This document shows positions 54,601 to 57,600 of a stretch of 64,000 bases of DNA, piece by piece. This DNA is from Negaprion brevirostris. Taxonomy: Eukaryota. The notes under the pieces are model-generated. The model did not search any database, was not told where the DNA came from, and saw only the letters and a list, made by a program, of their open reading frames with translations. Each line of letters begins with the position of its first letter. Positions within the stretch are counted from its first letter, which is position 1. The DNA lies in the NCBI GenBank assembly GCA_030324005.1, contig JARDVH010000001.1:74755414-74819413 (forward strand), given 5' to 3'. Both the position numbers and the translations under genes were made by a program.

Positions 54601-57600
54601 ATCCACATGCTTGGAGTTGTACAGCAAGTCTGTATCCTTGGGAGAAAAGATTTTAAAAAATAAGCGTGAAGAAACAATAACTATCACATTGTAAGTAGGC
54701 CTGTTAACATTGCAGACTTTTTTATTTGTTCTTGGGATGTGGGTGTCGCTGGCTGGGCCAACATTTATTGCCCATCCCAGAGGATATTTATGAGTCAATT
54801 GCATTGCTGTGGCTCTGGAGTCACATGTAGGCCATTCCGGGTAAGGAGGACAGATTTCCTTCCCTAAAGGACATTAGTGAACCAGATAGGTTTTCCTGAC
54901 AATCGACAGTGGTTTCATGATCATCCAGATATGTTTTTATTGAATTCAAATTTCACTATCTGCCATGGTGAGATTCGAACCTGGGTCCCCAGAGCATTGC
55001 CTCGGCCTCTGAAGTACTAGTGTAATGACAATGCCACTATGCCACTGCTTCCCCTTGAGTATTATGTTATTTATGATCATTTCAATTATGAAAATATATC
55101 TTTTGTCAAAAGCTCAGATCTAGCTAATTAATTGCTTAGTCTGCTGTGTAACTTTATTTAAACTCTTAGTCATATAAATAAGTAGTGTAGATTGAAAAAG
55201 AAGTGTTATCATTATGTTTCAACTCCGAAATGGCTATAATAAATGTCCCAGTTTCTGTCAGATTGTATGAAAAAAGAAAAATCATTTTATAAATCCAACA
55301 AATACTGTTGATTTGACATGTTGTCTGGTCTGATTATCATTAGTTAACTGTTTGCTTTATCTTTTCTCTCTCAGATAGATGAACAATTATACACTGTCTG
55401 CAAAGAGTACCAGATTACGGAAGAGAATACCCGTCTTCGTTTCCTTGTGTGCTCCCTAGTGAACGACATTGCAGCTGCTTACTTTCCAGAATGCTCAATT
55501 AGACCATTTGGATCATCCGTAAATAATTTTGGGAAGATGGGCTGTGACTTGGACATGTTTCTGGATCTGGACAGTATTAGTGGAAGGAATAATACTAAGG
55601 TAATAACATTACTTCAGTGAAGGAAATGGAATTTCTGTTTCGTCATAAATAATAGACAATTGAAAAGAAAAATGCACCCTTTGGATACCTGTAAAAGTTG
55701 AAGCACTGAAGCGAATGCTCTGCAACCTGACAGTAATGGGGTTCAGACAATGTTGGAACAGGGTGCAGAATTCTTAGAAGAAATTTAGCAAGCGGTAAAC
55801 TTAAGTGATTTTGTAATGATTTGGTGAACTCAGATGGAGGGTGGTTTAGATGATGAAAAGGAAAGGAGAAGTGAAAAGAGTGACAAGTCTGGAAATAGTC
55901 ATTCGGGGTGGGTAGGCTCAATGGAGGTGAAAGTTCAAGAAAGAAGAAAAAAAAGAGGAAATTTGAGCCATGAACATGTAGGAGTAGGGAGGTGTGTGCT
56001 ATTGTTGGTTTGTGAGAGGCCCAAGAGTTGAGGGAAGACATTGTGGAAGGCAGCTCACAAAACTATCAGTAGGCCTAGCAAAAAAAAATCCCTAAATTAG
56101 TCTTCCCTCAATGTGGAATGCTGAGAGCATAGACAAGGGTCATGGGTAGAGTGGGGACTCAATGTTAAAAAGGCAGCACGGGCTCGTTGGGCCTGTTTCC
56201 CGTGCTGTGTTATTCTTTATTTTCTTCTTACTCTTATTTTGGTGGACCCCTGGCCCTGATTCAACACTGATGCAAAATAATTATTCAACACATTAACTAT
56301 TTCCTTATTTGAACTGGCAATATCACTTAGCAGTCTTCAAAAGCACCTGGCCACTCTCTATTTCCTAGTATAATTGTGTGTTGATTTTGATATCCCTTGC
56401 AAGTTTCTTTTCATTCTCTCTTTTTGCAGGTCTTCCTTTTTTTGTCATCCTTTGCATCATTCCTATTTGGAGGGTACTACATTTTCCATTTTTGTATGTT
56501 TTTTCTTTTGTTGTCCATACTGTCTGTTCCGGCACATAGTCTCTTAGGGTTATAAGCTGGATCTGTGCCACAAACTTATTTTTTGATGGCCTCCCATTGC
56601 CTTTCACCCATTAACTGATATTCCTCTGCACAGCCTCTGTCTCATCACATTGCCATTGGCATCTCCACATTGTGGCTACCAGAGTTGGACTGGGGTAAAC
56701 ACAGTAAGAAGTCTCACCAGGTTAAAGTCCAACAGGTTTATCTGGTAGCAAACACCACTCACTGTTGGACTTTAACCTGGTGTTATGAGACTTCTTACTG
56801 TATCACATTGCAGCCTTAAATTTAGAATCTTAGTAGCTGTTTTGTTTTTCCTTTCTTTCAAGCACTATGATGAGCTCAATCATATTATGATTGCTATTAG
56901 ATAAATCTGGCTAATTACTCATAACTATGTCTGATATGGCATGCAATCTCATCAGTTCTAGGATATATAATGCAACAGGACACTATCCTGAATGCATTCA
57001 AAATACCAAGGGGTGCACATTGAGAAAATCATAGGGTTCATGCTTGCCAAATCACAACATGCACTTATGGTAAGAAAGACTTCTTGACAAAAGTACACAT
57101 GAAAAAATTGGTCCTAATGTTTCAACTGTAAAAGTGCATAATACATTGTCTGGGTCAATGGTTGGCATATGATAACTAACAACTGACTGTATACTTTCTA
57201 TTGAGCTTTGAATTCCAACTTTGTGGCGCAGTGCATCTTCCATCCCCACCCTCAATCCCAGCCCTTTGTCAGCTTGTTTGGCTCTTATTGATATACCATC
57301 CATTAAAGTGTGCAGTTGATCAATGGCTGCGACCATTATAACTCACCATAAAAATAAATCGTTTAAATTAAACTTGGAAATGTGAGACATAATCACCTAC
57401 AGTGAAAAGTAGCACAGTGGTTAGCACTGCTGCTTTACATCGCCAGGGACCTGGGATCAATTCCCGGTTTGAGTCACTGTCTGTGTGGAGATTGCACATT
57501 CTCCTGGTATTGGCATGGGTTTCCTCTGGGTGCTCCTGTTTCCTCCTACGCTCCAAAGATGTGCAAGTTAGGTGGATTGGCCATGCTAAATCGGTCCTTA

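What the first reader, a model, noticed from the sequence alone, without database searches (positions are those of the whole stretch)
55375..55599. Orphan, intact MTPAP catalytic exon lying antisense inside a NIPAL1 intron
Seen in the sequence: 75 uninterrupted codons, a strong polypyrimidine/AG acceptor, a candidate branch point (ttaac, ~55344) and a GT donor. The exon is phase 0-0 and is absent from the ORF track. Established: FGSS-x9-DLD is the Pol-beta-type nucleotidyltransferase motif. The peptide matches the MTPAP segment with two of the three catalytic Asp, and human MTPAP is not a neighbour of TXK or NIPAL1. I found no other MTPAP exon by eye in the 64 kb, and no N gap separates this exon from the NIPAL1 exon at 57821. 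The retained intron flanks argue against a processed retrocopy. Inferred options: a recent DNA-level duplication or transposon-mediated capture of one exon; part of a relocated gene overlapping NIPAL1 antisense with very long introns; a cassette exon recruited into another transcript; or a local misassembly.
Basis: partly seen in the sequence, partly recalled or inferred. Interest (0 to 1): 0.85.

Follow-up and report, generated by a model that had tools for sequence, protein, structure and literature searches.

The report
Misassembled MTPAP exon in shark genome
The "orphan" exon is the only copy of this MTPAP exon in the assembly, and the real MTPAP gene has a gap exactly where it belongs; it was likely moved into a neighbouring gene's intron by an assembly error at a short, genuine duplicated piece of MTPAP intron, so it is likely an artefact rather than new biology.

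Summary
The exon is real, intact and MTPAP exon 4, but probably not an orphan. It is the assembly's only copy. The other eight MTPAP exons lie on C132, with a 3432-N gap from inside exon 3 to 204 bp into intron 4. A relative's mRNA contig splices it between exons 3 and 5, and a relative's DNA contig carries it straight into canonical intron 4. What really seems to sit in the NIPA-family intron is a 465-bp copy of the start of MTPAP intron 4 (55612-56076; 93% to C132 where both are assembled), fused to a SINE half, inside an old LINE. One contig enters at 55612 from LINE sequence that continues the LINE cut at the 100-N gap at 51812. The assembler likely crossed from the true gene into the duplicate and dragged about 3.7 kb, exon included, to C1. 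Open points: the gap is about 930 bp too short, the left junction rests on one contig, and no long reads were available. Two more MTPAP fragments exist elsewhere, one with a spliced junction.

The parts
55375..55599 (+). MTPAP exon 4 of 9 (aa 181-255 of shark MTPAP P0002), intact; likely the canonical exon, misplaced by the assembler
   Evidence: splice ends confirmed by RNA contig X21
51913..55611 (+). Block inferred to belong in the C132 gap: most of MTPAP intron 3, exon 4 and the first 12 nt of intron 4. Its left part (51913-53950) is the least certain
   Evidence: inference; gap budget does not fit exactly
55612..56076 (+). Real dispersed duplicate of the start of MTPAP intron 4 (465 bp, starts at the 13th intron base). 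The switch from canonical to duplicate letters in the assembly lies somewhere in 55616-55802
   Evidence: 253/273 identical to C132:30166923-30166657; right end where contigs of X1, X2, X6, X13 leave into canonical intron; left end from X1 contig 3
56078..56232 (+). 3' half of a high-copy short repeat (SINE label recalled), same orientation as the MTPAP piece. The A-run at 56080 is degenerate repeat sequence, not a poly(A) tail
   Evidence: loose ends at 56078
51442..51812 (-). Left part of an old LINE-like repeat (CR1 label and strand recalled) that hosts the insertion; it is cut at the gap
51813..51912 (.). 100-N gap; inferred to hide about 175 more bases of host repeat and the true left junction
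56240..56420 (-). Right part of the same host repeat; resumes 270-281 bases past the base homologous to 51812, so about 95 host bases are unaccounted for
   Evidence: L068, L069, L081; L063 gives about 230
53677..54120 (+). Old LINE-like piece that continues, within about 30-40 bases, the LINE piece at the start of MTPAP intron 3 seen in the exon-3 copy; suggests this stretch is MTPAP intron 3
   Evidence: both pieces collinear on 2 of 8 loci, L052 and L054
57822..57881 (-). NIPA-family exon upstream of the host intron
44030..44125 (-). NIPA-family exon downstream of the host intron

Best explanation
The exon is the assembly's single copy of MTPAP exon 4, the canonical gene on C132 has a gap where it belongs, and it was likely placed in the NIPA-family intron by a chimeric contig. 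Shown: two diverged versions of the start of intron 4 exist (55804-56076 versus C132). Inferred: a 465-bp copy of the intron-4 start (55612-56076) plus a SINE half was inserted long ago into an old LINE in the NIPA intron, with loss of about 95 host bases. The two copies share exact words, so the assembly graph has two ways in (exon side, LINE side) and two ways out (canonical intron, SINE side). The assembler likely joined exon side to SINE side. That leaves a gap in MTPAP, a 100-N gap where the LINE is cut, and the exon on the wrong scaffold. In the animal, MTPAP would be an ordinary nine-exon gene and the insert an inert intronic passenger. The insert most likely (about 0.5) arose by reverse transcription, switching from SINE RNA to unspliced or excised MTPAP intron RNA; a DNA patch followed by a later SINE insertion is the alternative.
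For: (1) One exon-4 match in 2.69 Gb; the only other hit is a distant paralogue at E 1e-4. (2) Exons 1-3 and 5-9 are on C132; the N run 30166925-30170356 covers the rest of exon 3, intron 3, exon 4 and 204 bp. (3) X13 has one 2295-nt contig over 55050-56076 that goes on into canonical intron 4; X21 RNA splices exon 3-4-5 with 3 differences in 225 nt. (4) In X1, a 682-nt exon contig and a 208-nt contig both end at 55645, and a 1229-nt contig starts at 55616: a two-in fork. The 208-nt contig fits 55612-55645 and has 174 foreign letters before. (5) The last 30 of those letters align best 164-184 bases past the base homologous to 51812 in 5 of the 9 host-repeat copies that score above the null's 95th percentile (29 examined; binomial 3e-5). 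They are absent from G000. (6) Two versions are seen in other samples only to the right of 55612: two X10 contigs on 55649-55920, two X6 contigs at 55764-55773, two X2 contigs on 55975-56062. (7) X2's contig differs from the window at 6 of 325, 2 of 225 and 0 of 149 bases in 55050-55748, but 9 of 137 in 55749-55885; paralogue distance is 14 of 267.
Against: The block needs at least 4366 bases but the N run is 3432. The left junction rests on one 208-nt contig at depth 4.1, with 34 letters on the MTPAP side, in a run that may be the assembly's own sample. X2's contig runs through 55616-55645 without a break, and no LINE-side contig was listed for X2. Without the score filter the position test is weak: 6 of 29 ends fall in 164-184, but another 21-base window also holds 6. 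With the boundary set at 55612, the X2 divergence contrast is not significant (6/325 vs 9/274, Fisher P 0.30), and Logan contigs can mix paralogues. An X1 contig leaves the window leftwards at 53951 for 308 letters, which is unexplained, while an X6 contig crosses that place unbroken. No contig bridges 56076 to the SINE in any of the 4 runs.
Confidence: 0.85

Rival explanations
1. A real 2-4 kb DNA duplicate that includes exon 4 sits in the NIPA intron. The canonical copy was lost from the assembly by collapse, and the window exon is the duplicate or a mosaic, an untranscribed pseudo-exon.
For: A duplication is real at 55804-56076. Contigs fork or end at 53951-53953 in X1, X2 and X10, which could be a left breakpoint. 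The gap budget fits a block starting near 53500-53950 better. K-to-N at 55464 is not in X2, X6, X10, X13 or X21. An intact frame would not be surprising in a neutral copy (no stop 0.77, no indel 0.44).
Against: No second version was seen left of 55612 in any of the 6 runs laid. The LINE-side contig enters at 55612 with the sequence expected after 51812. The 53951 fork lies in a repeat with raised depth, and other repeat copies align across it. The exon has only 2-3 differences to X2 and X21, against about 6 expected on a neutral branch alone (P 0.07-0.17). N at that position occurs in 4 of 120 homologues.
Confidence: 0.09
2. Both joins are real as a reciprocal exchange: exon side goes on into the NIPA intron and LINE side into canonical intron 4, a translocation between the two genes in this individual.
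For: The fork in X1 allows either pairing; the X1 contig that reaches canonical intron 4 passes through the shared piece and cannot phase it.
Against: It would break both genes. The scaffolds keep all five NIPA exons found in order on C1 and MTPAP exons in order on C132. A 5% diverged second copy needs an old duplication anyway. X13 links exon to canonical intron in one contig.
Confidence: 0.02
3. Exon 4 has moved and is used from C1, by trans-splicing into MTPAP or as a cassette exon in a plus-strand transcript over the NIPA gene.
For: It is the only assembled copy, intact and with good splice signals.
Against: The canonical locus has a sized gap with room for it and keeps the intron sequence that follows it. 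The one RNA contig laid shows only the ordinary exon 3-4-5 joins, in another organism.
Confidence: 0.02

Closest known systems
MTPAP (mitochondrial poly(A) polymerase; Pfam PF22600; PDB 3pq1, 5a2v)
   Same: 96% identical to shark MTPAP over all 75 residues, same motif, canonical splice positions.
   Different: Nothing of substance; N for K at exon residue 30 is seen in 4 of 120 homologues.
Repeat-induced misjoin (chimeric contig) in a gappy draft assembly
   Same: Single-copy exon on the wrong scaffold, matching gap at the home locus, two-in/two-out fork at a short diverged duplicate; 17 gaps in the 64-kb window. The concept is established knowledge; one search was seen as a listing only.
   Different: The trigger is a two-copy 465-bp intron fragment, not a high-copy repeat.
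Templated sequence insertions, class 2 (PMC5110952, passages read)
   Same: A distant intronic sequence inserted with micro-deletion of the target, no poly(A) and no target duplication found; RNA templates are proposed there.
   Different: Here it is old (about 5% diverged), present in several samples, and fused to a SINE half.
Retrotransposon/cellular-RNA chimeras made by template switching or RNA ligation (bioRxiv 10.1101/2025.02.02.635956, passages read)
   Same: 5' cellular RNA piece in sense orientation plus 3' truncated retroelement; the same layout is seen again on C146.
   Different: Those are LINE-1 chimeras with target duplications and poly(A). Here the 3' partner is a SINE half, the 5' partner is pure intron, and no target duplication was found.

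Membership tests
MTPAP | Best sequence match is MTPAP rather than TUT1/4/7 | tested here: met
   PDB 110 bits vs 51 for Star-PAP and 36 for TUT4; 96% to shark MTPAP
MTPAP | Exon spliced between exons 3 and 5 in mRNA | tested here: met
   RNA contig X21, organism C, loose ends at 55375 and 55599; not tested in the window's own species
Orphan (duplicated) exon | A second, canonical copy of the exon exists | tested here: not met
   One copy in G000; one contig over the exon in each of 6 runs; contigs can hide a merged second copy
Orphan (duplicated) exon | Molecules link the exon to the host intron | not testable with these tools
   Only contigs were served; none of those listed bridges 56076 to the SINE
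Repeat-induced misjoin | Gap at the home locus that matches the misplaced piece | tested here: met
   Position matches; size is about 930 bases short
Repeat-induced misjoin | Independent assembly shows the alternative path at the join | tested here: met
   X1 contig entering at 55612 from host-repeat sequence; contigs leaving at 56076 into canonical intron; left side seen in 1 of 4 runs
Repeat-induced misjoin | Long reads or read pairs contradict the assembled join | not testable with these tools
   No raw or long reads among the 22 runs listed
Class 2 templated sequence insertion (465-bp piece) | Donor at a distant locus, not excised | tested here: met
   C132 keeps the sequence
Class 2 templated sequence insertion (465-bp piece) | No target duplication or poly(A); micro-deletion or microhomology at the junctions | tested here: inconclusive
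   About 95 host bases missing; A-run is SINE sequence; only 30 letters of the left flank were seen
Template-switch chimera | 5' cellular RNA and 3' retroelement in the same orientation, inserted as one event with shared target duplication | tested here: inconclusive
   Orientation fits; a single event is not shown; no target duplication found
Processed retrocopy | Spliced junctions and poly(A) | tested here: not met
   Intron on both sides of the exon, no poly(A). The separate C1:5.8 Mb fragment has one spliced junction

The most novel reading that the evidence does not exclude
Shark retrotransposon machinery has repeatedly copied unspliced MTPAP RNA by switching from SINE RNA. The insert here starts 12 bases after the 5' splice site, as if reverse transcriptase ran off the 5' end of an excised intron. 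A second fragment on C146 has the same fragment-plus-SINE-tail layout and a third on C1 is half spliced. Spliceosomal intron RNA would then be a recurrent template for germline insertions in sharks.
Probability: 0.25. Interest if true: 0.4.

Novelty: not a real feature. Interest (0 to 1): 0.12.

Why it matters
As an orphan catalytic exon it would have been a rare snapshot of exon shuffling; the evidence says it is likely an assembly error. The practical lesson is that this assembly will annotate MTPAP as lacking its catalytic exon, and that a gap-free contig does not prove a join. The small real finding, three MTPAP fragments with intron sequence scattered in one genome, is a lead on how shark retroelements capture pre-mRNA, and the 465-bp insert could serve as a presence/absence marker among related sharks.

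Tried and rejected
1. A 2.1-kb duplicate with left end at 53951: set aside because other repeat copies align across that place, depth there is raised and X6 crosses it. It is not fully excluded. 2. A poly(A) tail at 56080: rejected, it aligns to the repeat's own sequence. 3. An 11-base match between 51792 and 56070 as target duplication: 0 further hits in 499,048 bases of non-self loci (the 5 hits included self loci), but 7 bases come from the donor, 3 fit the SINE, and it lies about 195 bases from the inferred left junction. Left unexplained. 4. K-to-R at exon residue 43 as decay: rejected, it is shared with X2 and X21 and with 49 of 120 homologues. 5. A profile from 15 of 29 host-repeat copies gave no hit for the 30-base loose end or for any of 300 shuffles, so it was uninformative. 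6. My first adjacency estimate from L058 (about 40 missing bases) was badly anchored and dropped. 7. Contig depth cannot give copy number: exon 7.0 vs flanks 5.8-8.2 in X1, 17.9 vs 12.3-21.3 in X2. 8. X13 shows no fork, which is no evidence of absence. 9. No RNA holder on record was listed; X21 is a guessed RNA run, though its contig is spliced. 10. No earlier scan findings for this genome. 11. Literature: 'MTPAP + shark + duplication' gave 1 unrelated paper; 'excised intron, lariat, reverse transcribed, insertion, retrotransposon' gave 14, 12 listed, none on this by title or abstract start. 6 of the 22 runs were laid (X1, X2 twice).

Full report
Observation. Window 55375-55599 (+) translates to 75 residues without a stop, with a pyrimidine-rich AG acceptor and GT donor. 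It is MTPAP: PDB 3pq1 at 110 bits against 51 for Star-PAP, Pfam PF22600, 96% to a shark MTPAP, P0002. It lies antisense between NIPA-family exons at 57822-57881 and 44030-44125, in a contig without N from 51913 to 64571. The neighbour is a Tec-family kinase. The names NIPAL1 and TXK, and the labels CR1 and SINE below, are recalled and come from no call.

The home locus. Searching G000 with the peptide gave the window and one weak paralogue. The full protein found exons 2, 3 and 5-9 on C132, minus strand, and exon 1 in the fetched stretch. Residues 139-255 are missing there: a run of 3432 N starts inside exon 3 and ends 204 bases into intron 4.

A real duplication, but a short one. The first 267 bases after the C132 gap match window 55804-56076 at 253 of 273 (14 substitutions, two 3-base gaps), too far apart for alleles (inference). 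At 56076 the window turns into the 3' half of a high-copy short repeat. Contigs of X1, X2, X6 and X13 leave the window at 56076; the loose ends shown for X1, X2 and X13 are canonical intron 4. Two versions of this stretch are seen in X10 (55649-55920), X6 (55764-55773) and X2 (55975-56062, depths 17.3 and 13.5). The two G000 versions share 38 of 243 31-base words, enough to tangle a graph assembler (established knowledge).

Where the duplicate starts. In X1, the exon contig (54964-55645, no difference from the window) and a 208-base contig both end at 55645, and the next contig starts at 55616. The 208-base contig fits 55612-55645 with one difference and has 174 foreign letters before that. 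The window's left contig ends at 51812 inside an old repeat with at least 40 copies. The same repeat resumes at about 56240, 270-281 bases further along in three well-matching copies. I aligned the last 30 foreign letters to the 450 bases after the position homologous to 51812 in 29 copies. Of 9 copies scoring above the null's 95th percentile (24.5; 1500 random segments), 5 place the end at +164 to +184 (binomial 3e-5); among well-anchored copies it is 4 of 5. Unfiltered it is 6 of 29, and another window of equal width also holds 6, so the filter matters. The 30 letters are not in G000. The reading: the true allele is host repeat to 51812, about 175 more host bases, MTPAP intron 4 from its 13th base to 56076 (465 bases), the SINE half, then host repeat again with about 95 bases lost.

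Consequence. There are two ways in and two ways out of the shared piece. The natural pairing is exon to canonical intron and host to host. X13 shows the first directly in one 2295-base contig, and X21 shows exon 3-4-5 spliced at exactly 55375 and 55599 with 3 differences. The window has exon to host, so it is likely chimeric, with 51913-55611 belonging on C132. Two further signs fit. X2's contig differs from the window at 6 of 325, 2 of 225 and 0 of 149 bases left of 55749, against 9 of 137 to the right. The LINE piece at 53677-54120 continues the LINE piece at the start of intron 3 on 2 of 8 reference loci. The K-to-N change at 55464 is then simply this species' allele; N occurs in 4 of 120 homologues.

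Against. The block needs at least 4366 bases and the gap has 3432; scaffold gap sizes are estimates, but this is not explained. The left junction rests on one low-depth contig from a run that may be the assembly's own sample, so it is a second assembly, not a second individual. X2 shows no break at 55616-55645. The divergence contrast is not significant with the boundary at 55612 (P 0.30), and these contigs can mix paralogues: X1's 1229-base contig has window letters to 55985 and canonical letters from 56002. An X1 contig leaves at 53951 for 308 letters. No contig bridges the right junction. I put the misjoin at 0.85, a real exon-bearing duplicate at 0.09, and the other readings at 0.02 each.

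How the 465-base piece arose (inferred). It is in sense with a 5'-truncated SINE half and starts 12 bases after the donor. G000 has two more MTPAP fragments. C1:5800753-5801345 has 10 bases of exon 2 spliced to exon 3, then the donor and intron 3 start; it differs from canonical at 12 of 109 bases. C146:18697144-18697533 has the end of exon 3 with a stop, about 350 bases of intron 3 and a truncated SINE tail, 81% like the C1 copy. The spliced junction shows an RNA route for one of them. Template switching from SINE RNA to MTPAP pre-mRNA or excised intron is my best guess (about 0.5). A DNA or RNA patch at a break with a later SINE insertion is the rival; an unexplained 11-base match between 51792 and 56070 would suit it.

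Known comparisons. Class 2 templated insertions use intronic donors and show micro-deletion without target duplication or poly(A) (PMC5110952, passages). LINE-1 chimeras with cellular RNAs by template switching or ligation are described in bioRxiv 10.1101/2025.02.02.635956 (passages; supplements not seen). Searches were otherwise seen as listings with abstract starts only. Searches found nothing on this locus or on intron-SINE chimeras in sharks.

Verdict. The orphan exon is likely not a real feature; interest 0.12. The residual real feature is a new member of a known kind.

Noticed in passing
G000:C1:5800753-5801345 (L020:5753-6345): Partly processed MTPAP fragment: spliced exon 2/3 junction, whole exon 3 with open frame, retained donor and intron 3 start; preceded by a SINE cut at its 3' end and followed by a LINE piece. 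12 of 109 differences to canonical.
   Followed up: partly
G000:C146:18697144-18697533 (L046:144-533): Third MTPAP fragment: end of exon 3 with an in-frame stop, about 350 bases of intron 3, then a 5'-truncated SINE tail; starts right after a 100-N gap. By eye it lies close to an exon of another gene on the opposite strand.
   Followed up: partly
window 51792-51802 and 56070-56080: An exact 11-base direct match between the host repeat and the MTPAP/SINE junction; no other hit in 499,048 bases of non-self loci. Unexplained.
   Followed up: partly
window 53951: An X1 contig leaves leftwards for 308 letters, X2 and X10 contigs end here, X6 crosses it. Could be a repeated word or a structural allele in intron 3 that would also bear on the gap-size mismatch.
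   Followed up: no
window 54492-54495: X2 and X10 contigs break here with unaligned ends, while X1 and X6 run through: a possible lineage-specific insertion.
   Followed up: no
G000:C132:30142283-30142292 and 30149901-30149910: A 10-N gap lies inside the last MTPAP coding exon and another at the start of exon 7, so the gene model is damaged at more than one place.
   Followed up: no
G000:C154:20992056-20993335: Distant nucleotidyltransferase paralogue matching two adjacent parts of MTPAP (57% over 35 aa; 26% over 105 aa); probably Star-PAP/TUT1 (recalled, not tested).
   Followed up: no
window 2365-14808 (+): Exons of a Tec-family kinase (SH2 and kinase domain), tail to tail with the NIPA-family gene.
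   Followed up: partly
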